Of a DNA stretch of 64,000 bases, positions 1,680-39,490 are shown piece by piece. The DNA is taken from IMG/VR virus record IMGVR_UViG_3300005836_000049, positions 4,734 to 68,733 of that record. One strand, 5' to 3'. The DNA is from a virus. Numbering within the stretch: the first letter of the stretch is position 1; each line of letters opens with the position of its first letter. Made by a program: the position numbers and the translations under genes. The notes beneath the pieces were generated by a model that did no database searches, was not told where the DNA came from, and worked only from the letters and a program-made list of their open reading frames with translations.

Positions 1680-1984
1680 GTTACGGAACCGTTACTCTCT
1701 GGATCGCCATCACCCTCCAGTTCGAGGGTGCGCCCTCCAGATCGCGAGGGAGCCCAAGGACCAACCCAAGTGTGGGTTGCACTCCACTCCCTCCATACCC
1801 TCTCTATTAGGAGAGGGGGTAGTAGGAGAGAAGACTCTGGAGGGGGTTTCCGTCCCGGCACCCGCAACTGAAATCGAATGGAGCGAATGGAGGGTATGGA
1901 GGGTGCGCCCGTAACCTGTTGGGCCAACGAACATTCCGTGCCCTCCATTTCGTGAGGGTCACTCGATGCCCTTTGGAGGGCAAG
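1680..1984. repeat. Boundary inverted repeat copy A. About 305 bp and about 80% identical to the reverse complement of 39184-39490.
   Basis: Aligned by eye against the reverse complement of copy B. Long identical runs, e.g. ttgccctccaaagggca, accctcacgaaatggagggcac, ccagagtcttctct, agagggtatggagggagtggagt. Contains >6 CCCTCC/GGAGGG hairpin stems. Indels destroy any common reading frame. Confidence 0.8.
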
Positions 1985-2215
1985 TGAAAAGCATCCGCTG
2001 ATCAGCAATGGCCAGCGGGATCCTGTGTGAGGTGGGGGCAGCCCCGGTCAGCAATGATCGGGGCTGCTTTTCTCTCCGGCAGCCTAGCGCGAGGGGAGTG
2101 GTTCAGGGTACGCTTCGTTCTCTGGCGGGGATCGCGGGAATGGCTTCCCTCACGATCACCCAGGGGAGCCTGATCTGCGAGCGGTCAGGCTCCCCACTTT
2201 CCTCGAAGGAAGCTG

Positions 2216-3709
2216 TTGGAAGCCATGACCCATCCCTACAAGACCGAACCGTTCCGTCACCAGCGGTCCGAGTTCGATGCGACCAAGGATCGACCCTTCT
2301 GGGGTCTGTGGTGGGAGATGGGGGTCGCCAAGACCAAGGTGCTCATCGACACGGCAGCGCACCTGTGGCTCCACGGCAAGATCGACGGACTGATCATCAT
2401 GGGTCCGGAAGGCGTCCACACGCAGTGGATCGACGACGAGATCCCGTTGCACATGCCGCTGCTCGTCCAGGACAGCCTCGACACCTTCATCTGGCACACA
2501 TCGAAGTCTGGCAACAAGAGCTTCGAGAAGCGCTGGGACGAGTTCCTCGCGCGCGAGCGCTCGCGAGGTCTCAGCGTCATCGCCATGACCTACCACTCGT
2601 TGATGACCGAGAAGGGCGCGCAGTGCCTCAAGAAGTTCATCAAGGGTCGCCGATGCATGCTCGTGCTCGACGAGTCGACCGCCATCAAGACCCCCGGCAC
2701 CAAGACGACCAAGCGAGTTCGCGCCATGGCGAAGCTCGCGCCCTTCCGGCGCCTCGCGAACGGCACGCCGATCTCCGACTCTCCCTTCAACGCCTACTCG
2801 CAGATCCGCGCGCTGAACGAGTCTGCTTGGGCTCACCTGGGCATCACCGACTCCGCCGGGTTCCGCACCTACTTCGGAGTGTTCAAGCGAGTGAACCTCG
2901 ACGAGGGACGCGGGCACTTCGACCAGCTGGTGGCGTACAAGAACCTCGATGAGATGGCCAAGGTGGTCGCTGCCCACGGGTCCAGACTGCTCAAGGCGGA
3001 CGTCTTCCCCGACCTCCCTCCGAAGCTCTACAGTAAGCACTACTTCGAGTTGACGCCCAAGCAGCGCGCAGCGTACAACGACCTCAAGGAGGAGTTCAGA
3101 CACTGGCTCTCCTCAGGCGAACTGGTCACTGCCGAGTTGGCCATCGTGCGCATGACCCGGCTGCAGCAGATCACTTCCGGCTACCTGCCGGCGGACAACG
3201 AGGAAGAGCCCACGTGCTTGGTCGAGCCGGAGGACAACCCGCGCCTGCACCTGCTCCAAGAAGTCCTCGAGGAGGTGCCTGGCAAGGTCATCATCTGGGG
3301 GAAGTACGACATCGACGTCGACCTCATCGCGCGCGTCTGCCGCGAGAAGCTCAAGTGGGATGTTGTGACCTGGGATGGTCGCACCTCGCAGGAGGACAAG
3401 CGGACGGCCAAGTCGCGCTTCCTTGATCCCAAGGGACCGCGCGCCTTCATCAGCAAGGCGTCCTCGTCGGCCGCGCGCGGACTCAACCTCCAGGTGGCCA
3501 ACACGGTCGTCTACTACAACAACTCCTTCGTGCTGGACGATAGGCTTCAGTCCGAGGACAGAGCCCATCGTCCTGGCATCCATCACCCGGTCAAGTACAT
3601 CGACCTGATCGGCAAGGGGACCATCGACACTCACATAGTCGCCACACTCCGCGAGAAGCGTGAGATCGCAGCGAAAGTAACCGGAGATCAATTGGCCTCT
3701 TGGTTGTAG
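2216..3709 (+). CDS. Superfamily-2 helicase, SNF2/DEAD-DEAH-like
   Basis: Motif II LVLDEST. C-terminal helicase motifs (SKASSSAARGLNLQ...VVYYNNSF). 497 aa. SD-like ggaag upstream. Confidence 0.7.
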   Translation: MEAMTHPYKTEPFRHQRSEFDATKDRPFWGLWWEMGVAKTKVLIDTAAHLWLHGKIDGLIIMGPEGVHTQWIDDEIPLHMPLLVQDSLDTFIWHTSKSGNKSFEKRWDEFLARERSRGLSVIAMTYHSLMTEKGAQCLKKFIKGRRCMLVLDESTAIKTPGTKTTKRVRAMAKLAPFRRLANGTPISDSPFNAYSQIRALNESAWAHLGITDSAGFRTYFGVFKRVNLDEGRGHFDQLVAYKNLDEMAKVVAAHGSRLLKADVFPDLPPKLYSKHYFELTPKQRAAYNDLKEEFRHWLSSGELVTAELAIVRMTRLQQITSGYLPADNEEEPTCLVEPEDNPRLHLLQEVLEEVPGKVIIWGKYDIDVDLIARVCREKLKWDVVTWDGRTSQEDKRTAKSRFLDPKGPRAFISKASSSAARGLNLQVANTVVYYNNSFVLDDRLQSEDRAHRPGIHHPVKYIDLIGKGTIDTHIVATLREKREIAAKVTGDQLASWL

Positions 3710-3806
3710 ACAAGGTACGATAGAGGCGCTCCCCAGGATCAACAGCCCGGAGTAGCATAAATGGGACGGCAGGCCTGGTCGCCGTCTTCCACCACCCAGG
3801 AAGCCA

Positions 3807-4385
3807 ATGACAGACGCATCAGACTACGCAGCGTTCGCAGGAGCCGCGCCGACCTCGGAAGCGCTCACCAACCTCGGCAAGGCAGCGAAGCAACTGTTCG
3901 ACGCGGAGACCGAAGTTCTTCGCTGCGAGGCCGAACTCAAGACAGCGCAGAAGCGCGTGGATGATCTTTCGGAGCACATCATCCCGAGTCTCATGACCGA
4001 GGCGGGTCTGAGGGAGATCAAGCTCGCCAACGGCACCAAGCTGAAGGTCACGGACATGCTGACCATCGGCAGCGTGACCAAGAGCCCCGAGGTCCTGGCG
4101 TGGCTCGAGAAGACGAACAACGGCGGCTTGATCAAGCGCAACGTGACCGTGATCCTGGGCAAGGATCCGGAGCGCGAGAAGGCGCTGCTCGCCGAGTTGG
4201 AGTCGGAAGGGTTCAAGGACGTCTCGAGCTTGCGCTGGGTCGAGTCTCAGACGCTCAAGGCACACGTCAAGAAGCTCTTGGAGGCTGGCGCCGAAGTCGA
4301 CATGAACATGCTCGGCGTCCGTCAGTTCAAGAAAGCAGAAATCACCGGGAAGCCCAAGGACGGCTCCTCGGCGTTCGGGGAGTGA
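3807..4385 (+). CDS. Hypothetical coiled-coil protein (Siphovirus Gp157-like placement next to recombination/SSB-like gene)
   Basis: 192 aa, strongly alpha-helical/charged. SD caggaagcc before ATG. Confidence 0.45.
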   Translation: MTDASDYAAFAGAAPTSEALTNLGKAAKQLFDAETEVLRCEAELKTAQKRVDDLSEHIIPSLMTEAGLREIKLANGTKLKVTDMLTIGSVTKSPEVLAWLEKTNNGGLIKRNVTVILGKDPEREKALLAELESEGFKDVSSLRWVESQTLKAHVKKLLEAGAEVDMNMLGVRQFKKAEITGKPKDGSSAFGE

Positions 4386-4453
4386 TCCCCGCGCCCCTTG
4401 GGCTGGAGGGCGTCAAAGTGTCCGGCACCAATCAACGTCACAAGGAAACTCAC

Positions 4454-5281
4454 ATGGCAACGCAGAGGAAGACAACCACGGAAGTGGCCGTGCCCACGAA
4501 GAGCACGGCGATCGCGATCCCCGACTACGGCGCGAAAGCCGGACTCGGCTGGGAGAACACCGACAAGTCGGACTTCCAGATCCCGTTCCTGAACCAACTG
4601 CAGTCGAACAGTCCGCAGTGCACCAAGGGAGAGCCGCAGTACGATGCCAAGTACGACCCCGGCATGTTCCTGAACTCGAGCACGCTGGACTTGTACCCGG
4701 ATGCGGTGTACCTGCTCATCGGGCTCACCAAGCACTCGTACGTCGAGTGGCGTCCGGGTGGCGGCAGCTTCGTCGCAGAGCACGAGGTCCTGTCGGACGT
4801 CGTGACCAAGGCGAAGGAGAAGACCGAGAACCAACTGGAGCTCAAGTCGGAAGCCGGAAACGAACTCCAGGAGACCTACCAGGTGTTCGCCATCCTCTGC
4901 AACGAGGACTTCACCGAGGTCGAAGGTCAGGTCGTGTTCAGCTTCTCGCGCACCAAGATCAAGCGCTACAAGCAGATCATGACGCGTCTGCGCACGTTCA
5001 AGGGGAGCGACAAGATCCCGACGTTCGCGCACCGCATCAAGATGGTCTCGACCTCCGAGAAGAACCCGGAAGGCAAGCCCTACAAGAACGTCTCGCTGAT
5101 CCCGGCGATCAACAACGACGTCGCGCAGAGCCTGCTCCCGGCCGACTCGCCTCTCCTGGAGGTCGCCAACGGTCTCCGTGAAGCGATCATCGGCGGCGCG
5201 GCCAGGGCGAACTTCGAGACGGCGGCTCCGGCTGCCGCAGGCACTTCCGAAGAAGGCGGAGACGGCGTCTTCGCCGACTGA
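4454..5281 (+). CDS. Putative ssDNA-binding / recombination protein with acidic C-terminal tail
   Basis: SD aaggaa 9 nt before ATG 4454. C-terminus EEGGDGVFAD resembles acidic-aromatic tails of phage SSB/annealing proteins. Confidence 0.4.
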   Translation: MATQRKTTTEVAVPTKSTAIAIPDYGAKAGLGWENTDKSDFQIPFLNQLQSNSPQCTKGEPQYDAKYDPGMFLNSSTLDLYPDAVYLLIGLTKHSYVEWRPGGGSFVAEHEVLSDVVTKAKEKTENQLELKSEAGNELQETYQVFAILCNEDFTEVEGQVVFSFSRTKIKRYKQIMTRLRTFKGSDKIPTFAHRIKMVSTSEKNPEGKPYKNVSLIPAINNDVAQSLLPADSPLLEVANGLREAIIGGAARANFETAAPAAAGTSEEGGDGVFAD

Positions 5282-5386: not shown

Positions 5387-5398
5387 TCTTCAATCAAC

Positions 5399-6640
5399 AT
5401 GGAAGCAACTACACTCTCCTGGTCGCCGCAGCAGACCGCAGCGCTTGATGCGGTGCGCGTCTGGCTGGAGAACCGCGCGTGCGGCAGGGACAAGCGCCAG
5501 TGCTTCTACCTCGCAGGGTACGCTGGCTCCGGCAAGACGACCCTCGCGCGCGAGTTCGCGAAGGCGCTCCCTGGGCAGGTCGAATTCGCGGCCTTCACTG
5601 GCAAGGCAGCCAACGTCCTCCGGACGAAGGGTTGCGACCGGGCGCGCACCATCCACTCCCTGATCTACATCCCGGTCAGCAAGTCTCGCGCGCACGCGGA
5701 GGAGCTTCGCAACCTGATCGAGGAGGCGAGAGCCGAAGGCAATCGCGCTGCAGTCGATAGGCTCGAGGTCGATCTCGCCGAGGCGATGGAGCAGCTGCGG
5801 CGCCCGTCCTGGTGCGTCAACCCGGACAGCGACCTGAATGCGGCCGACCTCCTCATCGTCGATGAGGTGTCTATGGTCGACGAGCGCATGGGGGAAGACC
5901 TCTGCTCCTTCGGGATCCCGATCCTCGTGTTGGGCGACCCTGCCCAGCTGCCTCCGGTCGCGGCCAGCCAAGGGTACTTCACCCGCAACGAGCCGGACTT
6001 CATGCTGACCGAGGTTCACCGGCAGGCCCAAGGGTCGCCGGTCCTCAAGCTGGCAACGATCATTCGGAAGGGCGGCACGCTCGACCTGGGCACCTACGGT
6101 TCGTCGGCGGTTGTCGAGCGCAAGACGATCAAGGTCGGCGAGGCGATTGAGAACTTCGACCAGATCATCTGCGGTCGCAACGCAACCCGGCACGCCATCA
6201 ACAAGGCGGTGAGGGAGTTCTGCGGTCAGCAGGGGAAGCTCCCGATGGTCGGAGAGAAGCTGATCTGCTTGCGCAACGATAGGGACTCCGAGTTGCTCAA
6301 CGGATCGTTCTGGGAAGTGTTGAGCGTGCTCGAGGAGGACGATGGCGACACGCTGCGCTTGGTCATCAACTCCCTGGACGAGGGCGGCGCCGGCAATCGG
6401 TTCGTGACCGCCTGGCGCCACCACTTCGAAGGGCGCACAGATCAGTTGTCACCGTGGCGCATTCGCGACCACATGGAGTTCGACTTCGGCTACGCAATCA
6501 CCTGCCACAAGGCGCAGGGATCACAGTGGCCAAGGGTCCTGGTGTACGATGAGTCGGCGATCGCGCGTGCCGACCGGAGCAAATGGCTGTACACAGCCTT
6601 GACGCGCGCCTCCGACTCCGTTACCGTAGTGCAACAATGA
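5399..6640 (+). CDS. RecD/Dda-like SF1 DNA helicase
   Basis: Walker A GYAGSGKTT. LIVDEVSMV (motif II). C-terminal ITCHKAQGSQW typical of RecD/TraA-family helicases. Confidence 0.7.
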   Translation: MEATTLSWSPQQTAALDAVRVWLENRACGRDKRQCFYLAGYAGSGKTTLAREFAKALPGQVEFAAFTGKAANVLRTKGCDRARTIHSLIYIPVSKSRAHAEELRNLIEEARAEGNRAAVDRLEVDLAEAMEQLRRPSWCVNPDSDLNAADLLIVDEVSMVDERMGEDLCSFGIPILVLGDPAQLPPVAASQGYFTRNEPDFMLTEVHRQAQGSPVLKLATIIRKGGTLDLGTYGSSAVVERKTIKVGEAIENFDQIICGRNATRHAINKAVREFCGQQGKLPMVGEKLICLRNDRDSELLNGSFWEVLSVLEEDDGDTLRLVINSLDEGGAGNRFVTAWRHHFEGRTDQLSPWRIRDHMEFDFGYAITCHKAQGSQWPRVLVYDESAIARADRSKWLYTALTRASDSVTVVQQ

Positions 6641-9294: not shown

Positions 9295-9779
9295 GGCGCA
9301 TCCTCAAGAATCGGGTCACGACCAAGGTCCGCACCTGGATGTTCTGGTGGTGGATGGAGATCGACGGGCGAAAGCCGGGGGTCAAGTACCTCACGCGGCT
9401 GTACGTGCTCAACACTCCGCTCTTCGGGATCAAGCTCCACTGGTTCCACGCTCCGGATCCCGACGAGCACTGCCACGACCACCCGTGGGCCTTCCTCAGC
9501 CTCATCCTCAAGGGAGGCTACACCGAGCGTCGCGAGTGGTTCTTGCGCGGTGTCCTCATGAGACAGACCGTCAAGACTCGAGGGCGCGGCACGCTTGCCT
9601 TCCGTCGCGCGAATGCGGTGCATCGCATCGAGCACATCCAGTACGGAACCATGACGCTGATCGTCAACGGACCCGTCACACGGGTCTGGGGGTTCTGGAG
9701 CCGTGAGCACGGAATGTCCTTCAAGTTCGTTCCATGGCGCACCTACCTCGGGGTCCCCGAAGTCACGGAGGAAGTGTGA
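9291..9779 (+). CDS. Hypothetical protein with HCHDHPW motif (possible metal-binding/cupin-like)
   Basis: ATGA overlap. 162 aa. His-rich motif HFHAPDPDEHCHDHPW. Confidence 0.4.
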   Translation: MRRILKNRVTTKVRTWMFWWWMEIDGRKPGVKYLTRLYVLNTPLFGIKLHWFHAPDPDEHCHDHPWAFLSLILKGGYTERREWFLRGVLMRQTVKTRGRGTLAFRRANAVHRIEHIQYGTMTLIVNGPVTRVWGFWSREHGMSFKFVPWRTYLGVPEVTEEV

Positions 9780-10618
9780 TCAGCAACCGCGAACTCCTGC
9801 TGATGGACCGCACTCCGGTCGAGGACTACACGAAGGAGTTCGGCCTCTGGGTCAAGCGCGAGGACCTGAGCGCACGCGCGCCGGGTCCGTGCTTCTCCAA
9901 GACTCGAGGGGTGTACGCGCACTTGGCGGCGCGACCTGAGACGATCATCGGGGTGCTCGACACCTACCACTCCCAGGCGGGACACGCGGTCGCCCATGCT
10001 GCCCAACGGCTCGGGAAGCACGTCATCAACTACTACCCGGAGTTCAAGAAGGAACCGGGACCTCGCGAGCCGCAACTGCGCGCTCTCACGCTCGGCGCGA
10101 AGCTGGTTGGGCTGCCCGCTGGTCGCTCCTCGGTTCTGTTCCACCAGGCCAAGAAGCAACTCCGTGAGACCTACCAGGATAGCTACATGATGCCCAATGC
10201 GCTGAAGCTCCGGGAGATGGTGAGCGAGACCGCGCGCGAGGTCGGCTGTCTGGTAGACGAGGGTCACTTCAAGACCGTGATCATTCCGATCTCTTCGGGG
10301 ACGATCGCAGCCGGAGTCATCAGGGGATTCCTCGACTACGATCCGGAGTTCCTCCCGCGCTTCATCCTCCACATGGGGTACGATCGATCAGAGTCACAGA
10401 TCATGACCTACCTCTCTGAGATGGTCGGCTGCGGCTTCCAGGACGCCAAGATCACTCTCGTCAACGAACACTACGGCTACAAGGACAAGGCAACGAACGG
10501 TCCGACTCCTCCGTGGCCGTGCTCCCCGTACTACGATCTCAAGGCGTTCCGCTGGTGGATGCGAGGCGGCGCCCTCGGGATCACCGGCACATACCCTCTC
10601 TTCTGGAACATCGGCTGA
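9776..10618 (+). CDS. PLP-dependent enzyme, fold type II (threonine synthase/dehydratase-like)
   Basis: GTGA overlap start. PLP-lysine motif FSKTRG (compare FKDRG/FKIRG). Glycine-rich ISSGTIAAG loop. Confidence 0.6.
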   Translation: MISNRELLLMDRTPVEDYTKEFGLWVKREDLSARAPGPCFSKTRGVYAHLAARPETIIGVLDTYHSQAGHAVAHAAQRLGKHVINYYPEFKKEPGPREPQLRALTLGAKLVGLPAGRSSVLFHQAKKQLRETYQDSYMMPNALKLREMVSETAREVGCLVDEGHFKTVIIPISSGTIAAGVIRGFLDYDPEFLPRFILHMGYDRSESQIMTYLSEMVGCGFQDAKITLVNEHYGYKDKATNGPTPPWPCSPYYDLKAFRWWMRGGALGITGTYPLFWNIG

Positions 10619-12042
10619 TGGAACAAGACGCAGTGGAAGACGGCGGCGCAGAACACGCCGCATGGCTCAAGGCGCCCGTGGACGGTGAAGACACGCGCGA
10701 GCGCTACCAGTACTACATGCGCCCCGAGCCGCGCGAGAACCTCGGTGAGATCGTCGAGGAGATGGATGAGCTCACCGGCAAGGTGCTGCGCTCTCGCCTC
10801 GTCGGCGTGCCGATGATGCGTGGCGGTGACCGCAAGCCGCTCAAGGTGTACCTCGATCCGTTGCCGCACATCCGCATCCCCGATGCGAAGAAGCTCCAAG
10901 GCTGGTACCAGGCACGTCACTGGAAGGACGAGACCGGATCGAACCTCCGCAAGCGTCCGCGCCCGTGCTACACCGACGCCATGCTGACCGAACCCTACGG
11001 CGGCTACTGCACCGTGGGCTGCGCCTTCTGCTACATCAACTCCGGGTTCAAGGGTTACCGAGGCTCCGGTCTGATCTCGGTGCCCGTCAACTACGGCGCG
11101 CAGATCGAGCGGCAGCTGGCGAAGTTCAAGACGGCCACGGCAGGCTACTTCTCGTCCTTCACGGATCCGTTCCTCCCGCTCGAGGACTTGTACCACAACA
11201 CGCAGTCCGGCGCGATGGCGTTCGATCGCGCTGGGCTGCCGGTCTTCTTCTTGTCCAGGCTCCACTACCCTGGTTGGGCCTTCGACCTGCTCGCGAAGAA
11301 CAAGTACAGCTACATGCAGAAGTCGATCAACGCTCCCGACCAGGAGCGTTGGAAGGCGCTGAGTCCCGGGGCGATCTCGCTTGCGGACCACTGCGCCGAG
11401 ATCGCAGAGGCACGCAAGCGCGGCATCTACGTCTCCATCCAGGTCAACCCGATCATCGCTGGGGTCATCACCCACGACGACGTCGTGGCGACGTTCGAGA
11501 TGCTCGCCAAGGCTGGCGCCAACCACGTCATCATCAAGTTCGTCGAGGCGGGGTTCAATTGGGCGCCGACGATGATCGAGCGCATCCAGAAGCGCTTCCC
11601 AGGCAAGCCTGGCGAGGACTTCGCGGCGCTGTTCACGCAGAACATCGGCGGCCAGCGGACGATCGCTGAAGAGTACCGCATGCAGGGTCACCATCTGTAC
11701 CGTGCTGCCGCGACTCGCTTGGGCATGACCTACGCCACGTGCTACGAGTACAAGTGGGAACGTGATGCCCAAGGGGAGCCGGTGAACAAGATCGGGATCT
11801 CCGTGGGCGGAGACTTCCTCACGGCGGATCAGTGCCACGGACACCGCGTACCGATGTTCACTCGCGAGGCACTCAACGAACCCTTCAAGGAGTTCGTTGC
11901 ATGCCCCCCATCAGGATGCCTCACGTGCGCGTCGGGGACTCCCAAGGCAAGTCCCTGCGGATCCAAGCTCTTCGGTCTCGCCAAGGCACTCGACTACGCT
12001 GACTTCAAGGTCAGCATCCGGGAGGACGCTGCCAGTGAGTGA
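10618..12042 (+). CDS. Radical SAM enzyme
   Basis: CxxxCxxC cluster CTVGCAFCY. 474 aa. Start overlaps the PLP-enzyme stop. Confidence 0.7.
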   Translation: MEQDAVEDGGAEHAAWLKAPVDGEDTRERYQYYMRPEPRENLGEIVEEMDELTGKVLRSRLVGVPMMRGGDRKPLKVYLDPLPHIRIPDAKKLQGWYQARHWKDETGSNLRKRPRPCYTDAMLTEPYGGYCTVGCAFCYINSGFKGYRGSGLISVPVNYGAQIERQLAKFKTATAGYFSSFTDPFLPLEDLYHNTQSGAMAFDRAGLPVFFLSRLHYPGWAFDLLAKNKYSYMQKSINAPDQERWKALSPGAISLADHCAEIAEARKRGIYVSIQVNPIIAGVITHDDVVATFEMLAKAGANHVIIKFVEAGFNWAPTMIERIQKRFPGKPGEDFAALFTQNIGGQRTIAEEYRMQGHHLYRAAATRLGMTYATCYEYKWERDAQGEPVNKIGISVGGDFLTADQCHGHRVPMFTREALNEPFKEFVACPPSGCLTCASGTPKASPCGSKLFGLAKALDYADFKVSIREDAASE

Positions 12043-12418
12043 CCCGAACCCGTTCACGGTGAACCGGCGAATCAAGCTCGCCGACTGGCACGCCGAGGGG
12101 ATCGCTCGTTTCGGCGAGAACCCGCTCAAGTGGAAGTTCGTCTGTCCCAGCTGCGGCATGGTTCAGTCGGCGGAGGACTGGAAGGCTTATGGCATCCCCT
12201 TCCGTGACGTGGACCGCCAGGTGGCGTTCAACTGCCTGGGAAGGCGGATCAAGAGCGTCTGCCCCACCGCTGACGTGGTAGAGTTCGGCGACATGAACAA
12301 GGGATTTGGTTGCAACTACACGGGTGGCGGACTCTTCCGCGTCAACCCGGTCGAGGTCGAGTTCGGCTTCGAACCGAACCTCGAGATCCGTGAAACCTTC
12401 GAGTGGGCACCATCATGA
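12035..12418 (+). CDS. Cys-rich hypothetical protein (zinc-ribbon-like CPSCG...CPT)
   Basis: GTG start overlapping the radical SAM stop. Located within the modification operon. Confidence 0.4.
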   Translation: MSDPNPFTVNRRIKLADWHAEGIARFGENPLKWKFVCPSCGMVQSAEDWKAYGIPFRDVDRQVAFNCLGRRIKSVCPTADVVEFGDMNKGFGCNYTGGGLFRVNPVEVEFGFEPNLEIRETFEWAPS

Positions 12419-13041
12419 TCGTCAACCTGAGAGGCGGCAGTGGAAGTGGCAAGAGCACCGTGGTCAAGGAGATCATGAAGTGCTACGACACGCGCATCCC
12501 GTTCTTCATCGAGGGGCGCAAGCAACCGCTGTGGTACGATCTCAGCGACTCTCAGAACCCGGAAGGCCGGGTTCTGAGAGTCCTCGGTCATTACGAAATC
12601 CCTTGTGGCGGGTGCGACACGATCGGCGCGATCGGTGAGGAGCCTGCGATGAAGGTCATACACCGACTCGTTCGCGAGGCGAACAACGCCAACCTCCATG
12701 TGTTGTACGAAGGCGTCATCCTGACGACTCTCGCCGGTGATCTGATCCAGATGGTTCAGGAGAAGCTCCCCATCGTGGTTGTCAATCTGACCTCGGACCT
12801 CGAGACTTGCTTGCGCGGCATTACCGCGCGGCGCCTCGCGAAGCAAGGCATCACCAACCCGACCGACGAACAGACTGCCGCGATGAAGGCATCCCTCGGC
12901 GAGTCCACGATCAAGAACAACATCGGCAAGCTGAAGAGTGCCTACAAGACTGCCCGTCAACTCAAGGCAGCAGGTGCTTCAGTGTTCGACTGCGACCGCG
13001 AGGAAGCGGTCAACCTCATCAAGGAGACCTTCGACCTATGA
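12415..13041 (+). CDS. P-loop nucleotide/nucleic-acid kinase (candidate 5-hydroxymethyluracil DNA kinase)
   Basis: ATGA overlap. Walker A GGSGSGKST near N-terminus. Context with ThyA-like and aGPT-Pplase-like genes. Confidence 0.55.
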   Translation: MIVNLRGGSGSGKSTVVKEIMKCYDTRIPFFIEGRKQPLWYDLSDSQNPEGRVLRVLGHYEIPCGGCDTIGAIGEEPAMKVIHRLVREANNANLHVLYEGVILTTLAGDLIQMVQEKLPIVVVNLTSDLETCLRGITARRLAKQGITNPTDEQTAAMKASLGESTIKNNIGKLKSAYKTARQLKAAGASVFDCDREEAVNLIKETFDL

Positions 13042-13298
13042 CCGCCATCAAGCTGTTCGAGACCAAGGACCACGCCTTCAACATCAGCTTCGAGGTCAAG
13101 CTCACGCGCCTCCTGCTCGGTGGTGCGTACACCGAGGCTCCCTTCAGTCGTGAGGTGAAGATGCGCATGGTGACCCTCCATCTTCTCGTCCTGTGCCTCT
13201 GCTTCGTCGTCTTCTCGAACAACGAGGCGTCGGCGGAGGAAGTGCGGCGCGAGTTCGAAGCGCGCGGTCGCATCCTCGGCAAGAAGAAGCGCAAGTGA
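13038..13298 (+). CDS. Small membrane protein
   Basis: Overlapping start. Hydrophobic segment LHLLVLCLCFVVF. Basic C-terminus. Confidence 0.35.
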   Translation: MTAIKLFETKDHAFNISFEVKLTRLLLGGAYTEAPFSREVKMRMVTLHLLVLCLCFVVFSNNEASAEEVRREFEARGRILGKKKRK

Positions 13299-20307: not shown

Positions 20308-20706
20308 ATGCGCAGCAATGTCGTCAAGCTGCTGCGCCATGCTGGCCTGGATGCCCGTCCCGTCGAGAACGCGGTGGACATCGGCTACCCGGACATCGAG
20401 TACATCGGTGGCCTGCTCGAGCTCAAGCAGATCGACGCTTGGCCCAAGCGCATCGAGACTCCGCTCCGCTGCGAGCACTACACGCAGGAGCAGCGCATCT
20501 GGCACGAACGTCGATGGCATGCTGGCGGAGCCATCCATGTACTGCTCCAGGTCGGTCCTGAGTTCCTCTTGTTCACCGGGAGGACTGCCCCGAACCTGCT
20601 TGGGCATGCCTCACGCAAGGTGCTCGTCGCTAACGCCAAGGCGCACTTCCACACGCTCGCTGACCTTGTTGCTCGCCTCCCCGAAGTGCTGAAGGCTCCC
20701 CGATGA
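20308..20706 (+). CDS. Putative PD-(D/E)xK / VRR-NUC-like nuclease
   Basis: D..PDIEY...ELKQ arrangement. SD gagaagg before ATG 20308. Confidence 0.35.
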   Translation: MRSNVVKLLRHAGLDARPVENAVDIGYPDIEYIGGLLELKQIDAWPKRIETPLRCEHYTQEQRIWHERRWHAGGAIHVLLQVGPEFLLFTGRTAPNLLGHASRKVLVANAKAHFHTLADLVARLPEVLKAPR

Positions 20707-23099
20707 TCTCCCCCAACTACCTTGCCTCCGCTGACTTCCTGAAGCAATGGGCCAAGACTGGTCCGTGGGTTCTGGTTGCGCTCGATCCCGACAAGAAGGG
20801 GATCGAGGCCGACACGTTCAGTCCGCTGGACGAGAAGCGGATGATGGACTGGCTGGAGAAGCAGGGCACCAAGCTCAAGCGCAACATCTACTTCACGGTC
20901 AACCCGTGCGTGCGCCCGCTCCAGACCAAGCCCATGCGCGAGCATATTGGTGCGTTGGCGTGGCTCCACGTTGACTTGGACCCGCGCAGCGGGGAACCGA
21001 TCGACGAGGAGCGCAGTAGGATCCTGAAGCTGCTTCAGAATCCTACTGCAAAGGGCATTCCCACCCCCAGCGTCATCGTCTTCAGCGGCGGAGGCTACCA
21101 GGGGTTCTGGCGACTAGCGAACCCGGTCATCCTCTCCGGGAAGCCGGAGGACTTCGAGGAAGCGAAGCGCTGGAACCAGCAACTCGAGTTCGTGTTGGGC
21201 GGAGACGCCTGCCACAACATCGACCGCATCATGCGTCTTCCTGGCACGGTCAACCGGCCCAACGAGCGCAAGCGCAAGGCCGGCAGGACCGAGGCGCTCG
21301 CTGAGGTCATCGAGTTCAACCAGGAGTCGTACGACCTCGCGAAGTTCATCAAGGCGCCGCTCGTCCAAGGCTCTTCCCCGGTTGCTCACTCCAGCACGCT
21401 GGTCAACATCAGCGGTAACATCAAGCGGCTCTCCAGCGTAGACGAGTTGCCCAAGGAGGTCAGTCCCCAGGCGAAGGTCGTCATCGTCCAGGGCACCGAC
21501 CCCGACAACCCCGACAAGTTCGGCTCGTCCCGCTCCGAGTGGTTGTTCTTCGCCTGCTGCGAGATGGTCCGTGGCGGATGCTCTGATGACGTCATCTACA
21601 GCGTCATCACCGATCCGGACTTCGGCATCAGCGCCTCGGTCATCGACAAAGGCTCTGGCGTGCACGCCTACGCTGTCCGCCAGATCGAACAGGCGCGCGA
21701 GCATGCCATAGACCCTGTGCTCTACGAGTTCAACTCCAAGCACGCATTGATCGGCTCGATCGGATCGAAGGGTCTGTGCCGCATCCTCACAGAGGAGATC
21801 GATCCAGTGCTCAAGCGCGAGCGGGTGTCGTACCAAGCACAGAGTGACTTCATGCTGCGCTACAAGAAGCGCACGATCGACTGGATGGTGGAGGGCAAGC
21901 CTGCCTCCAAGCCAGCCGCACTCTGGTGGCTCGAGCATCCCATGGGACGCTACTACGACACCGTCGTGTTCGCTCCTGGGATCGAGACTCCTGGCAATTA
22001 CAACCTCTGGAAGGGGTTCGCCTTCGATGCGGATCCCTCGGGCTCCTGCGAGTTGTACCTCGAGCACGTGCTCAACAACATCTGCAGCGGGAATGAGGAG
22101 TGGAACAGCTACCTTCTTGACTGGATGGCGTGGTGTGTTCAATTCCCCGCCCAACCGGGTCAGGTGGCGGTAGTCCTTCGGGGCGAGCAAGGCGTAGGGA
22201 AGGGAGTCTTCGCTGAGCACTTCGGCAAGCTCTGGGGTGGGCACTTCCTCCATATCACGAGTTCGAAGCACCTGGTCGGCTCGTTCAACGCTCACATGCG
22301 CAATTGCGTGGTCATGTACGCCGATGAAGCGTTCGCGAGCGATGATAAGCAGGCGGAGTCGATGCTCAAGACGCTCGTGACTGAGAGCACCATCGTGACG
22401 GAGGCGAAGGGAGTCGATGCCGAGCCCACCGCCAACTACATCCACTTGATCCTCGCATCGAACCACGAACACGTGGTGACCGCTGCGGAGCACGAGCGCC
22501 GGTTCTTCGCGCTGAAGGTCGCACCCGGCAAGCGCCAGAACGCTATCTATTTCGCAGCGATCGCGCAGCAGATGATTGATGGAGGCTACGGTGCATTGCT
22601 CGCGCTTCTCCTCTCTCGTGACGTGTCAAAGTTCAACGTGCGCAAGATGCCGAAGACCGGCGAGTTGACGCGCCAGAAGGAACAGAGCCTCAAGGTCGAG
22701 GACGAGTGGTGGTACGACAAGCTCCAGGACCGCGAGGTCTTCTCTGGTCGCGGCTGGCCGGAGTACGTGTTCGCCAGTGAGCTCTTGTACAATCTCTCGG
22801 AGCACATCAGACAGCAGCGAACGGGCAAGGCAACCGCGCGGCGCCTGACCAAGTACCTCGAGCTGGTCACAGCCGGAAGGGTGATCCGCACGCAGCTGGA
22901 CCTCAAGACCCCGCTGCTCGTCACCCAAGCGAATGGTGATCAGACTGAGGTGTTGAGACCCTACGTGTTCTTCCTTCCGCCGATCGAGGACTGCCGCAAG
23001 ATCTGGGAGTTGATGGGCAAGCCTGCTGACTGGCAGGCGGTCCACAAGGCTCCAGAGATGGCCGAACCCGAGCCTGGAGAGCAGGAGGCGTTCTCGTGA
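20703..23099 (+). CDS. Bifunctional primase-polymerase (N-terminal) / D5-P4-type SF3 helicase (C-terminal)
   Basis: N-terminal VLVALDPD and VIVFSGGGYQGFW prim-pol-like motifs. C-terminal P-loop LRGEQGVGKGVF plus MYADEAF (Walker B). 798 aa. Confidence 0.65.
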   Translation: MISPNYLASADFLKQWAKTGPWVLVALDPDKKGIEADTFSPLDEKRMMDWLEKQGTKLKRNIYFTVNPCVRPLQTKPMREHIGALAWLHVDLDPRSGEPIDEERSRILKLLQNPTAKGIPTPSVIVFSGGGYQGFWRLANPVILSGKPEDFEEAKRWNQQLEFVLGGDACHNIDRIMRLPGTVNRPNERKRKAGRTEALAEVIEFNQESYDLAKFIKAPLVQGSSPVAHSSTLVNISGNIKRLSSVDELPKEVSPQAKVVIVQGTDPDNPDKFGSSRSEWLFFACCEMVRGGCSDDVIYSVITDPDFGISASVIDKGSGVHAYAVRQIEQAREHAIDPVLYEFNSKHALIGSIGSKGLCRILTEEIDPVLKRERVSYQAQSDFMLRYKKRTIDWMVEGKPASKPAALWWLEHPMGRYYDTVVFAPGIETPGNYNLWKGFAFDADPSGSCELYLEHVLNNICSGNEEWNSYLLDWMAWCVQFPAQPGQVAVVLRGEQGVGKGVFAEHFGKLWGGHFLHITSSKHLVGSFNAHMRNCVVMYADEAFASDDKQAESMLKTLVTESTIVTEAKGVDAEPTANYIHLILASNHEHVVTAAEHERRFFALKVAPGKRQNAIYFAAIAQQMIDGGYGALLALLLSRDVSKFNVRKMPKTGELTRQKEQSLKVEDEWWYDKLQDREVFSGRGWPEYVFASELLYNLSEHIRQQRTGKATARRLTKYLELVTAGRVIRTQLDLKTPLLVTQANGDQTEVLRPYVFFLPPIEDCRKIWELMGKPADWQAVHKAPEMAEPEPGEQEAFS

Positions 23100-23786: not shown

Positions 23787-23810
23787 GTCCTGGCCCCGGG
23801 TGGGGGTTAG

Positions 23811-25167: not shown

Positions 25168-25180
25168 ACTCTGTCGGAGA

Positions 25181-27154: not shown

Positions 27155-27523
27155 ATGACCACCAAGCAAGCCACCTTCCAGGAACTGCTCAACCGCGCCG
27201 AAAAGCTGCGCGACGATGTCTTCACCGCTCGCGAGCCTGGCGACGACGAGATGCGCCGTGTCCAGGGTCTGCTCAGTGAGGTCCGCGACCTCATGCAGGA
27301 AGCTGTCAAGAAGGCTGGTCCCGCTCCCGAGGCTCCGGTCCTCGCCAACGCCAAGAGGGTCATCGCGGCTCTTCGCCACACCGGCGACTCGACAGTCAAC
27401 CAGCTGATCGAGAAGACCGGCCTCAATGGGGTGCCCGTGCGCGAAGCGCTCGATCTCTGCGAGCAGCTGTCGGTCGCTCGCCGCATCGGTCAATTCTGGC
27501 GCGCGACGGAGATCAAGCTGTGA
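27155..27523 (+). CDS. Putative winged-helix DNA-binding protein
   Basis: C-terminal segment STVNQLIEKTGLNGVPVREALDLCEQLSVARRIG resembles a wHTH recognition unit. First gene after P3. Candidate regulator (inference). Confidence 0.35.
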   Translation: MTTKQATFQELLNRAEKLRDDVFTAREPGDDEMRRVQGLLSEVRDLMQEAVKKAGPAPEAPVLANAKRVIAALRHTGDSTVNQLIEKTGLNGVPVREALDLCEQLSVARRIGQFWRATEIKL

Positions 27524-30589: not shown

Positions 30590-31875
30590 ACAACAAGGAC
30601 GACCTCAACAACTTCCTCGCGGCGCCGGACACGGTGCGCGCCAATGAGACCGAGCGGCGCAAGTACCTGTCGCGCAAGGCGAAGGAGAAGGCTGAGGAGG
30701 AGCGCGAGCGCGCGACCAAGGCGAAGAACAAGCCAACGATCGAGGACATGTTGGCCGACCTCGTGCGCTGCGCCGAAGACCCCGACACGAACCCCTTCCA
30801 CGCCTTCCGCACTCTGAGCCGGAAGCGCTACAAACAGTTCGGGTTCTATCCGATCGAGTTCATCGACGACGAGTTCGGTCAGTTCGAGCACGCCAAGCAA
30901 GTCGCCGGTCTCGAAGATCAGCCCGGCACGCGCGCGAAGAAGGCAGCGCGCGCCGAGCAGTCACGCAAGCAGCACGCGGGTCGCTACATCGAGCGGTACA
31001 TCACGCCGAACGTGTACCGACCAGATGACCGCGAGCACACCGACACGGTGTGCTTGCTGTCCATCAGTGACACCCATGCGACGTTCCTCGATCCGTTCAC
31101 TTGGGCGTGTTTCCTCCGCGCCATCGATCACCTCAAGCCGGACATCATCTACTTCAACGGTGACATCTTGGAAGGCGGGGAGATCAGCCGCTACCCGAAG
31201 ATCCCCGGCTGGACGGTCCCGCTGCAGCTGGAGTTCGACTTCGCGCGCGAGATGATGCGCCAGACCCGCGCACGGGCGCCGGACGCGGACATCATCTGGG
31301 GCGCGGGCAACCACGGACTCGATCGCATCGCCATGTACCTGACGCAGGTCGCGCCAGCCTTCTCCAAGCTGCGCAACCTCCGCTTCGACAAGCTGGCGGG
31401 TGTCGAGGAGTACGGTATCAAGCTCTCGCAGGGCGGAACGATTGCGTCCCCGGCAGGGACCGAGGATGCCCAACCCGGCACGCTCTTCTACGGGTTCTAT
31501 GTGGTCCACCACGGCACTCTGCTCGGCGAGAGTCCGTACCTGAGTGAACTGCGGGTCGCGGGTCGCTCAGGTCAGTCCGGCCACGTTCACCGGGCTGGAC
31601 TGGCCTACTCCTCCAACGAGGTCAACTCCGCGATCTCGTGGATGAGCACGCCGATGGGATGCACTCCGCGTGCTGGACGCTCCTACATGAAGGGTCGGCA
31701 CACTGGTTGGCAGCGCGGCTTCGGTGTCGCCTTCCTGCATCCTGGCGGACGCGTCCACCAGTACCCTGTCGTGACCGAGGGTGGCGTCTGCACCTTCGAA
31801 GGTCTCGTGCTGGAGGACCCCGGCTACAAGGAACCGGATCCGAGCAAGCTCTGGCTCCCGGAGTTCAAGCCTTGA
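30526..31875 (+). CDS. Calcineurin-like metallophosphoesterase (true start possibly TTG 30586, overlapping upstream TGA)
   Basis: Motifs ISDTHA, FNGDILEGG, GAGNHG, HHGTL. 449-aa ORF. Confidence 0.6.
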   Translation: MLDLPHHQLPEARPPNGENPLNNKDDLNNFLAAPDTVRANETERRKYLSRKAKEKAEEERERATKAKNKPTIEDMLADLVRCAEDPDTNPFHAFRTLSRKRYKQFGFYPIEFIDDEFGQFEHAKQVAGLEDQPGTRAKKAARAEQSRKQHAGRYIERYITPNVYRPDDREHTDTVCLLSISDTHATFLDPFTWACFLRAIDHLKPDIIYFNGDILEGGEISRYPKIPGWTVPLQLEFDFAREMMRQTRARAPDADIIWGAGNHGLDRIAMYLTQVAPAFSKLRNLRFDKLAGVEEYGIKLSQGGTIASPAGTEDAQPGTLFYGFYVVHHGTLLGESPYLSELRVAGRSGQSGHVHRAGLAYSSNEVNSAISWMSTPMGCTPRAGRSYMKGRHTGWQRGFGVAFLHPGGRVHQYPVVTEGGVCTFEGLVLEDPGYKEPDPSKLWLPEFKP

Positions 31876-36057: not shown

Positions 36058-36089
36058 GACCTGCGAGGTAGGATTCAGCGCTCGCGCGC

Positions 36090-38319: not shown

Positions 38320-38573
38320 ACGACCTAGACCAGATGCGCGTGTTGCGTTACGCTCGATCGGAAACCCCCTTCACCGTGACCGCCGACCGGCGGAAGATCG
38401 TCGAGGGACTGGCGAGGAAGGGCATGCTGACTGTGGTCGGCGCCGGGCGATCGGGGACCCTGATGAAGCTGACGAAGAGCGGACTCGAGTTGCTCCAGTC
38501 ACTTGAGAAAGCCAACCCCGGAGTCCAGGACTACGCTCTCAAACAGGCGATCGCGCGGATGGACCGTGCCTAG
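38316..38573 (+). CDS. Small hypothetical protein
   Basis: 85 aa, ATGA overlap. Confidence 0.35.
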   Translation: MNDLDQMRVLRYARSETPFTVTADRRKIVEGLARKGMLTVVGAGRSGTLMKLTKSGLELLQSLEKANPGVQDYALKQAIARMDRA

Positions 38574-38840
38574 ACGGCCTCCGAAATCGCACCTGGCTCG
38601 GTGTATCGCGACCGCGACAGCGTGGGGATCCCGAGTCCCGGCGCAGCGCGAGTTGCGCGCCCTTCTCAAGCTGAAGGACGAGCAGCAGGCAGCGCTCGAG
38701 CGGGATGCGTACAAGGAGCGGCGCCGCGAGATCCCCGCACTCCGACAACGGATCGAGCAGCTGGCCAAGTACGTGCGACACGAGTTGAACTGCCAAGCTG
38801 TCCTACCCCAAGACCCCCGATTCAAGCACCTGAGAGGAGC

Positions 38841-39155
38841 ATGCACATGCGGCCTGACAAAGCTCCTGCACGGTTGACAGACGAGCGGTTGCGCCAGCTA
38901 GGCCAGCTGCACGAGGACGATCACGCCAAGTGGGCTGTCGACGCTCGACCTCTGGACGTCCGGCGCCCCTACCTGCCCATGTCGGTCGCCGAGCTTCGGT
39001 CACTCCTGGCAGAGGTCCAGGGTCTGCGCCGAGTGACAGAGACTCGCATGCCCTTCATCGGGCTGACCCCGGCCTGCACCCTCTGTAGCCTACCGGCTCA
39101 CGTGGGCAGCTGCGAGCGCGCGCGTGTCGCCTGGCACAGGTGGGAATCAACGTAG
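38841..39155 (+). CDS. Hypothetical protein (last early gene before boundary repeat B)
   Basis: ATG 38841 with SD gagaggagc. An overlapping alternative frame (38563-38877) cannot be excluded. Confidence 0.35.
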   Translation: MHMRPDKAPARLTDERLRQLGQLHEDDHAKWAVDARPLDVRRPYLPMSVAELRSLLAEVQGLRRVTETRMPFIGLTPACTLCSLPAHVGSCERARVAWHRWEST

Positions 39156-39183
39156 ATCAAGGCCCGGTTATAGGTTGAGCCGA

Positions 39184-39490
39184 CTTGCCCTCCAAAGGGC
39201 AGTTGCCCACCCTCACGAAATGGAGGGCACGGAATGGCGAGTAGCCCAACACATTAGGACTGCGCCCTCCATACCCTCCATTCGCTTGGGACACTTTCGT
39301 CCCTGGAATAGGAAACCGGGCGCCCTCCAGAGTCTTCTCTCTTACTACCCCCTCTCTAATAGAAGAGGGTATGGAGGGAGTGGAGTTGGGCCCACACAGG
39401 CCCCACACTTTGGCCACCCGCGCGAAATGGAGGGTGACAGCAAGATCTGGAGGGGGATGGCGATCCCAAGTACCTAACGGATCCCTAACG
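39184..39490. repeat. Boundary inverted repeat copy B (partner of 1680-1984, opposite orientation)
   Basis: See copy A. Begins 29 bp after the last early gene. Followed by a further strong hairpin (accgccgaaacggcggt, 39491-39507) and two BamHI palindromes before the terS-like gene. Confidence 0.8.

What the first reader, a model, noticed from the sequence alone, without database searches (positions are those of the whole stretch)
1680..39490. Pair of ~305-bp divergent inverted repeats exactly at the two early/late module boundaries
Copy A (1680-1984) and copy B (39184-39490) are ~80% identical in opposite orientation. They lie in the only two intergenic gaps that separate the structural (late) genes from the ~37-kb replication/modification/early block. 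Both are built from serial CCCTCC...GGAGGG hairpins, including directly repeated aTGGAGGGtATGGAGGG units. Indels break any shared reading frame, so they act as DNA or RNA elements rather than protein. Plausible roles: a structured regulatory RNA made in both orientations; a bidirectional insulator/terminator or antitermination site; a protein-binding iteron array (an origin, or a partition- or packaging-related site, given copy B abuts terS); or recombination sites able to invert or exchange the whole early module. I do not recognise this as any characterised phage element.
Basis: seen in the sequence. Interest (0 to 1): 0.85.

Follow-up and report, generated by a model that had tools for sequence, protein, structure and literature searches.

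The report
Paired iteron arrays flanking replication module
The two ~305-bp repeats are real, and they are two copies of a conserved but unannotated DNA element that brackets the replication genes in a large group of phages; each looks like a replication origin, but no experiment has tested this.

Summary
Copy A (1680-1985) and copy B (39183-39489, opposite strand) are the only long inverted repeat in the window. They are 72-74% identical overall, with two ~75-nt blocks at 83-85%. Each carries eight TGGAGGG/CCCTCCA heptamers, four per orientation, around a short palindrome and a purine tract.

The pair is not unique to this phage. It sits at the same two places (late-operon end/SNF2 helicase, and upstream of terS) in Pseudomonas phages Ab18, PaMx11 and Epa5 (inverted), and in Pam3 and Rhizobium phage RHph_TM26 (direct). 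YuA shares only a 57-bp direct repeat. The core is conserved, but the short repeat differs from phage to phage.

The pair accompanies the replication module (primase-helicase 43-45% identical), not the terminase (no detectable similarity). The primase-helicase has a P4-alpha-type layout, with a C-terminal winged helix resembling the P4 origin-binding domain. Arrays of the same heptamer also lie directly beside unrelated SF3 primase-helicase genes in two other metagenomic contigs.

Best reading (about 0.5): two copies of an iteron origin, or an origin plus an accessory site as in SPP1 oriL/oriR. Rivals are operator arrays, pac site, RNA and inversion sites. Relative orientation varies between lineages, so inversion-based roles are unlikely. 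Nothing has been tested experimentally.

The parts
1680..1985 (+). Copy A of the paired element, between the last late gene and the SNF2 helicase gene
   Evidence: Self-BLAST and alignments. Syntenic homologues in L017, L020, L028, L030, L032, Ab18, PaMx11, Epa5, Pam3 and TM26.
39183..39489 (-). Copy B of the paired element, inverted relative to A, about 280 bp upstream of the probable terS start
   Evidence: Syntenic homologues upstream of terS in L001, Ab18, PaMx11, Epa5, Pam3 and TM26.
1713..1795 (-). Left iteron set of A: CCCTCCA on the + strand at 1713, 1733 and 1789. The last is part of a 9-bp-spaced triple, CTCCACT/CCCTCCATA/CCCTCTC.
   Evidence: sequence.
1838..1980 (+). Right iteron set of A: TGGAGGG at 1838, 1888, 1897 (a 9-bp tandem preceded by a degenerate TGGAGCG) and 1974, plus one reversed copy at 1941
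   Evidence: sequence.
1797..1835 (+). Core of A: palindrome CCCTCTC-TATTAG-GAGAGGG followed by the purine tract GGGGGTAGTAGGAGAGAAGA. This is the least G+C-rich part of the element (0.50-0.57 against 0.62 for the genome).
   Evidence: The core is conserved in relatives whose iterons differ.
39188..39454 (.). The eight heptamers of B (39188-, 39221+, 39265-, 39274-, 39323-, 39372+, 39428+, 39448+), a mirror image of the pattern in A
39330..39369 (-). Core of B: palindrome (39350-39369) and adjoining purine/pyrimidine tract, G+C 0.47-0.50
2038..2073 (+). Rho-independent-type terminator (GCAGCCCCG ... CGGGGCTGC TTTTCT) just after A, preceded by a conserved GATCCTGTG(T)GAGGTGG box. It would end the late transcript, so A lies in the 3' untranslated part of that transcript.
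   Evidence: Sequence. The same arrangement is seen in L017, L020 and L030. The consensus scanner missed it because the loop is 12 nt.
2109..2114 (+). Candidate -10 of the early promoter (gggTACGCTtcg). Relatives have gggTATACTtcg or gggTATCCTtcg at the same place.
   Evidence: Comparison. Inferred, not tested.
20703..23099 (+). Primase-helicase (798 aa), the proposed initiator: RepB-primase-like N-terminus, DUF5906/VapE SF3 helicase, C-terminal winged helix (about nt 22773-23012)
2216..3709 (+). SNF2-family helicase, first gene of the early module, directly downstream of A
   Evidence: Pfam; homologues.
39769..40395 (+). terS (small terminase), first gene of the late module, downstream of B. 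The start is inferred from alignment with L001.
   Evidence: PHROG 4044; alignment.

Best explanation
A and B are two copies of an iteron-type replication element. Each has two opposed sets of a phage-specific 7-9-bp repeat (here TGGAGGG, partly in 9-bp tandems). These flank a conserved, less G+C-rich palindromic and purine-rich core.

The proposed binding protein is the phage's own P4-alpha-like primase-helicase (20703-23099), acting through its C-terminal winged-helix domain. Bound at the arrays, it would assemble on and open the core and prime synthesis.

Having two copies at the borders of the replication module resembles SPP1, where the same origin-binding protein binds oriL and oriR. There, one site fires and the other is proposed to stall the fork and trigger the switch to concatemer synthesis. 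From memory, it also resembles P4 ori plus crr.

Shown here: the architecture, the conservation at both sites, inheritance together with the replication module, the domain structure of the initiator, and the association of identical heptamer arrays with SF3 primase-helicase genes elsewhere. Inferred: that the primase-helicase binds the heptamers, that replication starts here, and what the second copy does.
For: (1) Architecture. Opposed repeat sets surround a conserved palindromic core in the window and in at least 12 relatives. The core is kept, while the repeat changes completely between phages: TGGAGGG; TCAAAG; GTCTAAGGG; CGTACTCGAC; CTAAGTCGC; CCCAAGCGC; CGTCTTAGG; GAACTGCA. Within a genome both copies always use the same repeat. 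This is what one fast-evolving sequence-specific binding protein would produce. [quoted passage not shown]

(2) The pair travels with the replication module. The primase-helicase is 43-45% identical across the window, Ab18, PaMx11, Epa5, YuA and TM26. In contrast, TerL and TerS of the window show no BLASTP similarity to those of Ab18 or TM26.

(3) The initiator has the P4-alpha/pRN1 ORF904 layout of primase, SF3 helicase and C-terminal winged helix (layout described in PMC2777425). The winged-helix segment is the most variable part of the protein.

(4) Independent association. A metagenome scan for the tandem heptamer found mixed-orientation TGGAGGG arrays in three independent elements (L047, L084, and L078 with L046). 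In L047 (32% G+C) and L084 (52% G+C) the array lies immediately 3' of an SF3 primase-helicase gene.

(5) A and B are the only non-coding short-repeat clusters in the window, so no other origin candidate is visible.

(6) There is a precedent for two similar origin copies bound by one protein: SPP1 oriL/oriR (PMC6316719; PMC3485210).

(7) Site patterns between Ab18 and PaMx11 show 32 copy-specific, 19 genome-specific and 3 crossed sites. Both copies are therefore old and separately maintained, yet they partly co-evolve within a genome.
Against: No binding or replication data exist. The copies lie 16-19 kb from the primase-helicase gene, whereas in PICIs and pRN1, and in L047 and L084, the origin abuts that gene.

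The core is only modestly less G+C-rich than the genome (0.47-0.57 against 0.62), so it is not an obvious unwinding element.

The winged-helix domains of the window, L047 and L084 proteins show no sequence similarity although their arrays use the same heptamer. That association therefore does not by itself identify the reader of the motif.

Some relatives with the same primase-helicase family (L031, L033) have no array at the A site, and no array lies within 10 kb of the primase gene in L091.

Confidence: 0.5

Rival explanations
1. The arrays are operator or enhancer-like sites for a phage transcription regulator. This regulator would co-ordinate the two promoters that start the replication-module operon (helicase ...) and the packaging-module operon (terS, terL, portal).
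For: Each copy lies 100-280 bp upstream of a conserved GGG-TAnnCT -10-like box that precedes the first gene of a module. The YuA record annotates sigma70 promoters of 'medium activity (1000 MU)' inside both regions, and the -35 hexamer overlaps a repeat copy. Working in either orientation and at variable distance is typical of upstream regulatory arrays.
Against: No candidate regulator was found. Pfam scans of the small early proteins found no DNA-binding domain. This reading does not explain why identical heptamer arrays abut SF3 primase-helicase genes in unrelated contigs. The opposed repeat sets around a melt-prone core match an origin layout. The two readings are not exclusive, since origins often overlap promoters.
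Confidence: 0.2
2. The elements are packaging (pac-type) sites. TerS would bind the repeats on both sides of a central cleavage region, as in P1 or SPP1 pac, and A would be a second or accessory site.
For: B lies directly upstream of terS in every genome examined. The family is regarded as circularly permuted with headful packaging (PMC11946847). TerS diverges faster than TerL between the window and L001 (48% against 83%), while the repeat differs. From memory, the layout of repeats, centre and repeats resembles P1 and SPP1 pac.
Against: The same architecture persists with three terminase systems that have no detectable similarity. A is not near any packaging gene. Ab18 reads showed 'no abnormal peaks' (PMC4482731). 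No second pac site in inverted or direct orientation is known in phages.
Confidence: 0.07
3. The elements act as homology blocks for recombination. They would either allow inversion of the 37.5-kb early block or serve as boundary sequences that let whole modules be exchanged between phages.
For: The pair exactly brackets the module that is shared between siphoviruses (window, Ab18, YuA) and myoviruses (Pam3, TM26) with unrelated late modules. Relative orientation differs between lineages, so at least one flip occurred.
Against: No recombinase gene was found; the 'integrase' annotations in relatives refer to the primase-helicase. At 72-86% identity within a genome the copies are poor substrates for homologous recombination. 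All genes stay on one strand in every genome seen, so inverted isomers are not observed. This reading does not explain the phage-specific repeat arrays. Module exchange may be a by-product rather than the function.
Confidence: 0.05
4. The elements are structured RNAs. A is transcribed as the 3' end of the late operon and B as the 5' leader of the late operon, so the two RNAs would be complementary to each other.
For: No terminator separates the last late gene from A. Both strands fold better than shuffled controls: z = -4.8 for A(+) and -4.0 for B(+).
Against: There is no Rfam hit. The good folding follows from the opposed repeat sets. In the Ab18/PaMx11/Epa5 alignment the covariation term is only -0.65 kcal/mol. 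All putative helices would use one and the same heptamer, and directly repeated copies co-vary too, which pairing cannot explain. Copies are in direct orientation in other lineages, so the complementarity is not conserved. One local hairpin of A is absent from B.
Confidence: 0.04
5. The two copies are a miniature transposable element (MITE or IS remnant) present twice.
For: They are two similar non-coding copies with CCCTCCA ... TGGAGGG near both ends.
Against: There are exactly two copies, always at the same two syntenic sites, across phages whose helicases are only 40% identical. No target-site duplication is seen and there are no other copies in the window. No hit was found in the phage collection by DNA.
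Confidence: 0.01

Closest known systems
SPP1 oriL / oriR (Bacillus phage SPP1)
   Same: Two distant copies of a similar element, each built from repeats plus an A+T-richer segment, lie in one phage genome that is transcribed in one direction. Both are bound by the phage's origin-binding protein. One copy lies in an intergenic gap of the late region. The second copy is proposed to stall the fork and trigger the theta-to-concatemer switch (PMC6316719, PMC3485210).
   Different: In SPP1 the initiator is gp38 working with a DnaB-type helicase, not an SF3 primase-helicase. oriL lies inside the initiator gene. The SPP1 repeats are direct. Here both copies are intergenic at module borders, the repeat sets are opposed, and binding has not been tested.
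pri-rep-ori modules of PICIs/SaPIs, and P4 alpha with ori (and crr)
   Same: The initiator combines a primase, an SF3 helicase and a C-terminal DNA-binding domain. The origin consists of two sets of element-specific iterons flanking a melt-prone region (PMC6092414 Fig. 2 legend; PMC2777425). L047 and L084, which use the very same heptamer, have exactly this layout. From memory, P4 also needs a second, distant iteron-bearing site (crr) in cis.
   Different: In those systems the origin abuts the initiator gene and is single, apart from P4 crr. Here there are two copies 16-19 kb from the gene. The core is conserved across phages, which has not been described for PICI origins. The window protein's primase domain is RepB/AEP-like, not DnaG-like as in P4 alpha.
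P1 / SPP1 pac sites
   Same: Size is about 160-300 bp, short repeats sit on both sides of a central region, and the position is next to terS (from memory).
   Different: The element here is duplicated, one copy is far from the packaging genes, and it is independent of the terminase family.
Lambda OL / OR operator pair
   Same: Two paralogous arrays of sites for one protein, in inverted orientation, flank a block of early genes.
   Different: The lambda operators overlap divergent promoters 2.4 kb apart. Here all genes run one way, the copies are 37.5 kb apart, and their relative orientation varies between lineages.

Membership tests
Iteron origin served by an SF3 primase-helicase (P4 / PICI / pRN1 type) | Two sets of short element-specific repeats flanking an A+T-richer, melt-prone segment | tested here: met
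   Each copy has 4 + 4 heptamers around a core with G+C 0.47-0.57 against 0.62 for the genome. The drop in G+C is modest. It is much clearer in the low-GC analogues L047 and L084.
Iteron origin served by an SF3 primase-helicase (P4 / PICI / pRN1 type) | The genome encodes an initiator with primase, SF3 helicase and C-terminal winged-helix DNA-binding domains | tested here: met
Iteron origin served by an SF3 primase-helicase (P4 / PICI / pRN1 type) | The origin lies immediately beside the initiator gene | tested here: not met
   A is 18.7 kb upstream and B is 16 kb downstream of gene 20703-23099. No array lies next to the gene.
Iteron origin served by an SF3 primase-helicase (P4 / PICI / pRN1 type) | The initiator binds the iterons specifically and the region supports initiator-dependent replication | not testable with these tools
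   Needs EMSA or footprinting, a plasmid replication assay, or origin mapping.
SPP1-type two-origin system | Two distant, similar copies with repeats and a less stable segment | tested here: met
   Conserved as a pair in Ab18, PaMx11, Epa5, Pam3 and TM26.
SPP1-type two-origin system | Both copies are bound by one origin-binding protein, and the second copy arrests forks | not testable with these tools
   Indirect support only: both copies of a genome always share the same repeat while repeats differ between genomes.
SPP1-type two-origin system | gp38-type initiator with one origin inside its gene | tested here: not met
   The initiator candidate is an SF3 primase-helicase, and both copies are intergenic.
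pac site recognised by small terminase | The element co-occurs and co-evolves with a particular terminase | tested here: not met
   TerL and TerS of the window show no BLASTP similarity (E about 1) to those of Ab18 and TM26, yet the element and its position are conserved.
pac site recognised by small terminase | It is the site of the first packaging cut | not testable with these tools
   Only the literature bears on this: Ab18 reads formed a circle with no abnormal peaks (PMC4482731).
MITE / IS | Terminal inverted repeats with target-site duplication, and copies at non-homologous sites | tested here: not met
   There are two copies only, at syntenic sites across distant phages.
Invertible segment (Gin/Hin/Cin type) | A site-specific recombinase gene and sites always in inverted orientation | tested here: not met
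   No recombinase was found among the roughly 50 of 70 proteins scanned against Pfam or PHROGs. Copies are direct in Pam3, TM26 and YuA.
Known RNA families (Rfam 15) | A match at or above the family's gathering score | tested here: not met
   No match anywhere in the window.

The most novel reading that the evidence does not exclude
The pair is a two-site replication control device. The same initiator-bound element is placed at both borders of the replication module. One copy fires, while the other acts as a fork barrier or loop anchor that sets the switch to concatemer synthesis. The fast-changing iterons around a fixed core would work as a replicon 'identity code', keeping co-infecting relatives from using each other's initiator. 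The fixed cores would mark the seams at which whole late modules (siphovirus or myovirus) are swapped.
Probability: 0.15. Interest if true: 0.7.

Novelty: new variant of a known kind. Interest (0 to 1): 0.5.

Why it matters
If correct, this locates the previously unmapped replication origins of a widespread phage group. That group includes Mesyanzhinovviridae such as Ab18, PaMx11 and YuA, which are being considered for therapy against Pseudomonas aeruginosa, and also cyanophage Pam3 and Rhizobium phages.

It would also give a testable example of origin duplication outside SPP1, and explain where the early and late modules of these mosaic genomes are joined. The phage-specific repeats would be a direct read-out of initiator specificity, useful for engineering and for predicting cross-replication between relatives.

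If instead the arrays are regulatory, they mark the master control regions of both operons. Either way, a 300-400-bp conserved element that is unannotated in dozens of public genomes deserves an annotation.

Tried and rejected
- **DNA searches for copy A.** Distant BLASTN against the phage collection found nothing. Exact 24-mer scans of the viral and genome collections found nothing.
- **Rfam.** No match in the window.
- **Consensus promoter and terminator scans.** Nothing was found around either copy; the real terminator has too long a loop for the scanner.
- **Look-up of the window's own contig.** TerL and helicase were not on record, so the 6.9 kb of the 70.9-kb source contig outside the window was not seen.
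- **Homologue search with the C-terminal fragment alone.** No hits; the full-length protein was needed.
- **P4 cnr-like test.** The small ORF upstream of the primase-helicase shows no similarity to that protein's C-terminus, and looks nuclease-like.
- **DnaA-domain-IV-like small protein.** The one annotated in TM26 and Pam3 was not found in the window.
- **Shewanella phage S0112.** It has the closest cultured TerL but a different genome plan and no pair.
- **Correlating repeat sequence with the winged-helix recognition helix.** This had too little power. Every well-separated genome has both a different repeat and a different helix. The only pairs sharing a repeat are close relatives (Ab18, PaMx11, Epa5) or lack the primase gene on the contig (L001, L017).
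- **Literature.** The YuA paper (PMC2238194) is not held. Searches of the held literature for a description of these repeats found none.
- **Chromosomal TGGAGGG hits.** L040 and L068 have only four same-strand copies in ordinary bacterial gene contexts and were set aside.

Full report
**1. The observation**

Copy A (1680-1985, + strand) and copy B (39183-39489, - strand) align over their whole length. A self-BLAST of the window gives 74% identity over 316 columns with E = 2e-47. This is the only long inverted repeat in the 64 kb. MAFFT gives 72% over 301 ungapped columns, with two indels of 2 nt and 1 nt, so no reading frame is shared. Two ungapped blocks of about 75 nt reach 83-85%.

The heptamer TGGAGGG/CCCTCCA occurs eight times in each copy, four per orientation. 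That is 16 of the 24 sites in the window, where shuffles give 12.3 +/- 3.3 for the whole window. With 7-mers these are the two strongest short-repeat clusters in the window, and the only non-coding ones. Each copy has a left set of CCCTCCA and a right set of TGGAGGG, including a 9-bp tandem. Between them lie a 7-bp-stem palindrome and a purine tract (GGGGGTAGTA[G/A]GAGAGAAGA). This centre is the least G+C-rich part, at 0.47-0.57 against 0.62 for the genome.

**2. Genome context**

GC3 analysis shows nearly all genes on the + strand. Upstream of A are a tail protein and a small membrane protein. Downstream lies the early module:

- SNF2 helicase and DUF7307
- Dda-like helicase and ribonucleotide reductase
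- a thymidine-hypermodification cluster
- family A DNA polymerase and dCMP deaminase
- a 798-aa primase-helicase
- SSB

 B is followed by terS, TerL and a Mu-type portal. Alignment with a relative places the real terS start at GTG 39769.

A is followed by a conserved box, a terminator (2038-2073) and a conserved -10-like box. A therefore lies at the 3' end of the late transcript and upstream of the early promoter.

**3. The pair is a conserved family feature**

The window is syntenic with Pseudomonas phage Ab18 (Mesyanzhinovviridae). The same two positions carry paired copies in several cultured phages and related contigs:

| Genome | Copies compared | Identity | Relative orientation |
|---|---|---|---|
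| Window | 1680-1985 / 39489-39183 | 74% | inverted |
| Ab18 | 84-388 / 31598-31294 | 86% | inverted |
| PaMx11 | 350-715 / 28605-28241 | 76% | inverted |
| Epa5 | 5755-5962 / 39577-39371 (locus coordinates) | 79% | inverted |
| RHph_TM26 (Rhizobium myovirus) | 232 bp | 79% | direct |
| Pam3 (cyanophage) | 225 bp | 91.6% | direct |
| YuA | 57-bp central segment | 84% | direct |

YuA also shares CCCAAGCGC repeats between its two regions. Eighteen Pseudomonas phage records hold the element, all but one of them at two or more places, and none annotates it.

Metagenomic relatives have the element at the A site (L017, L020, L028, L030, L032) or the B site (L001). L031 and L033 lack it at A.

Across these genomes the core is recognisably conserved, for example TTACTACCCCCTTCTATAATAGAAGGGGATAGAAGTAA in L001 and CCCCCTCTATCTATAGTAGGGGTTAGTA in L032. 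The flanking short repeat is different in almost every lineage. Within a genome both copies always use the same repeat.

Between Ab18 and PaMx11, 32 variable sites are copy-specific, 19 are genome-specific and 3 are crossed. The two copies are therefore old and separately maintained, and they also partly co-evolve.

I found no description of these repeats in the papers I could search. These included the Ab18 paper and a 2025 analysis of the family. The YuA paper is not held.

**4. Which readings the comparisons weaken or exclude**

- **Mobile element.** Excluded by the strict synteny.
- **Roles that need the inverted relationship.** Orientation is direct in three other lineages. No recombinase gene was found; the 'integrase' annotations in relatives refer to the primase-helicase.
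- **Structured RNA.**
  - There is no Rfam match.
  - Both strands fold better than shuffles (z = -4.8 and -4.0), but that follows from the opposed repeat sets.
  - The covariation term of the consensus fold is only -0.65 kcal/mol.
  - All putative helices would use the same heptamer.
  - Directly repeated copies change in step too, which pairing cannot explain.
  - One local hairpin of A is missing from B.
- **pac site.** The window's TerL and TerS have no detectable similarity to those of Ab18 or TM26, yet element and position are conserved. Copy A is far from any packaging gene. Ab18 reads showed no peaks.

**5. Evidence for a replication element**

The protein that is conserved wherever the pair occurs is the primase-helicase, 43-45% identical across all six genomes. 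It combines a RepB-type primase region and a DUF5906/VapE SF3 helicase. Its C-terminal domain is the most variable part of the alignment.

An independent line came from a metagenome scan for AATGGAGGGTATGGAGGG. Among 57 loci, three independent elements carry dense mixed-orientation TGGAGGG arrays (L047; L084; L078 with L046). In L047 (32% G+C) and L084 (52% G+C) the array lies immediately 3' of an SF3 primase-helicase gene. There the arrays flank a clearly A+T-rich centre. [quoted passage not shown]

The C-terminal domains of the three proteins are not similar in sequence. Why they share one heptamer is unexplained, and the association does not prove which protein reads the motif.

SPP1 provides a precedent for two copies. 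oriL and oriR have a similar organisation and are both bound by gp38. The fork is proposed to stall at gp38 bound to oriR, triggering the switch to concatemers (PMC6316719, PMC3485210).

**6. What remains open**

- The copies lie 16-19 kb from the initiator gene, unlike PICI or pRN1 origins.
- The core is only mildly A+T-enriched.
- Some relatives lack the A copy.
- In YuA both regions contain promoters scored as active in the record's annotation, with a repeat overlapping the -35. A regulatory role is therefore a serious rival and may coexist with an origin role.

I put about 0.5 on the origin or iteron reading, 0.2 on operator arrays, and less than 0.1 on each of the others.

**7. Verdict**

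The repeats are real and clearly not chance. The window's element is one member of a conserved, apparently undescribed pair of cis-elements that brackets the replication module of a broad phage group. Its closest known analogues are iteron origins of SF3 primase-helicase replicons and the SPP1 oriL/oriR pair. It differs from these in position, duplication, the conserved core and variable relative orientation. I rate it a new variant of a known kind, of moderate interest. It is directly testable in cultured relatives.

Noticed in passing
window ~23800-23870(+), 25178-25280(+), 27058-27160(+), 43214-43276(-), 43954-44060(-): A repeated promoter-like box, TTCCCACGGAA(A/G)AACCCGTCCTG - about 16 nt - GGTATAGTT, stands directly upstream of genes. 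It probably corresponds to the repeats annotated in YuA as 'putative sigma70 promoter requiring phage-encoded cofactor' (middle promoters).
   Followed up: partly
window 42534-44573: Four minus-strand ORFs are inserted between TerL and the portal gene in an otherwise one-directional genome, with local reversal of AT and GC skew. Two of the promoter-like boxes above point into this cluster. One ORF matches PHROG 2433 (unknown function).
   Followed up: partly
window 50052-50555: About eight tandem copies of a 63-nt (21-aa) unit, 64-72% alike, lie inside the 731-aa late ORF 48682-50877.
   Followed up: no
window 9734-15941: A thymidine-hypermodification gene set: PLP enzyme ('threonine dehydratase'), radical-SAM/'photolyase'-like protein, split 5-hmdU DNA kinase, TET-associated glycosyltransferase, and a ThyA-like dUMP hydroxymethylase. 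The virion DNA is probably hypermodified.
   Followed up: partly
window 39757-39771; L001 ~4585-4600: The probable terS start (GTG 39769) lies 6 nt after a -10-like TATCCT. L001 has TAGGAT 7 nt before its GTG. The terS message may therefore be leaderless.
   Followed up: no
L047 477-910; L084 1016-1216; L078 482-720: Unrelated contigs (32-59% G+C) carry arrays of the very same TGGAGGG(TA) unit, including the CCCTCCATACCCTCCATT tandem. Two of them sit beside SF3 primase-helicase genes whose C-terminal domains share no sequence similarity with the window's. Why the same heptamer recurs is unexplained.
   Followed up: partly
L005 1-351; L008/L009 171-418; L010 338-1004: More distant TerL relatives have dense arrays of other short units upstream of terS: GGGATCGTGTC in about 25 tandem copies, GGTAGG/CCTACC, ATGGTTAT, and AAGCCCC. 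L008 and L009, from different samples, end at the same base. This fits either an assembly break at a repeated element or a real genome end.
   Followed up: no
Ab18 (L022) ~171-230, 381-408 and 31263-31322: A 28-bp hairpin-like sub-element (GCAAACCCGCGC ... ACAGGGCTTGC) occurs twice per copy. Its second occurrence is flipped in B relative to A, which is a local inversion within the larger repeat.
   Followed up: no
window 39490-39560 (- strand: cgttacgcaggcgtaaccgccgtttcggcggtcgttagggatccgttagg) and 1684-1700: GTTA(C/G)GG-type short repeats and two small hairpins sit at the outer edge of both copies. A 22-nt match to this edge occurs in L011 (E 0.01).
   Followed up: no
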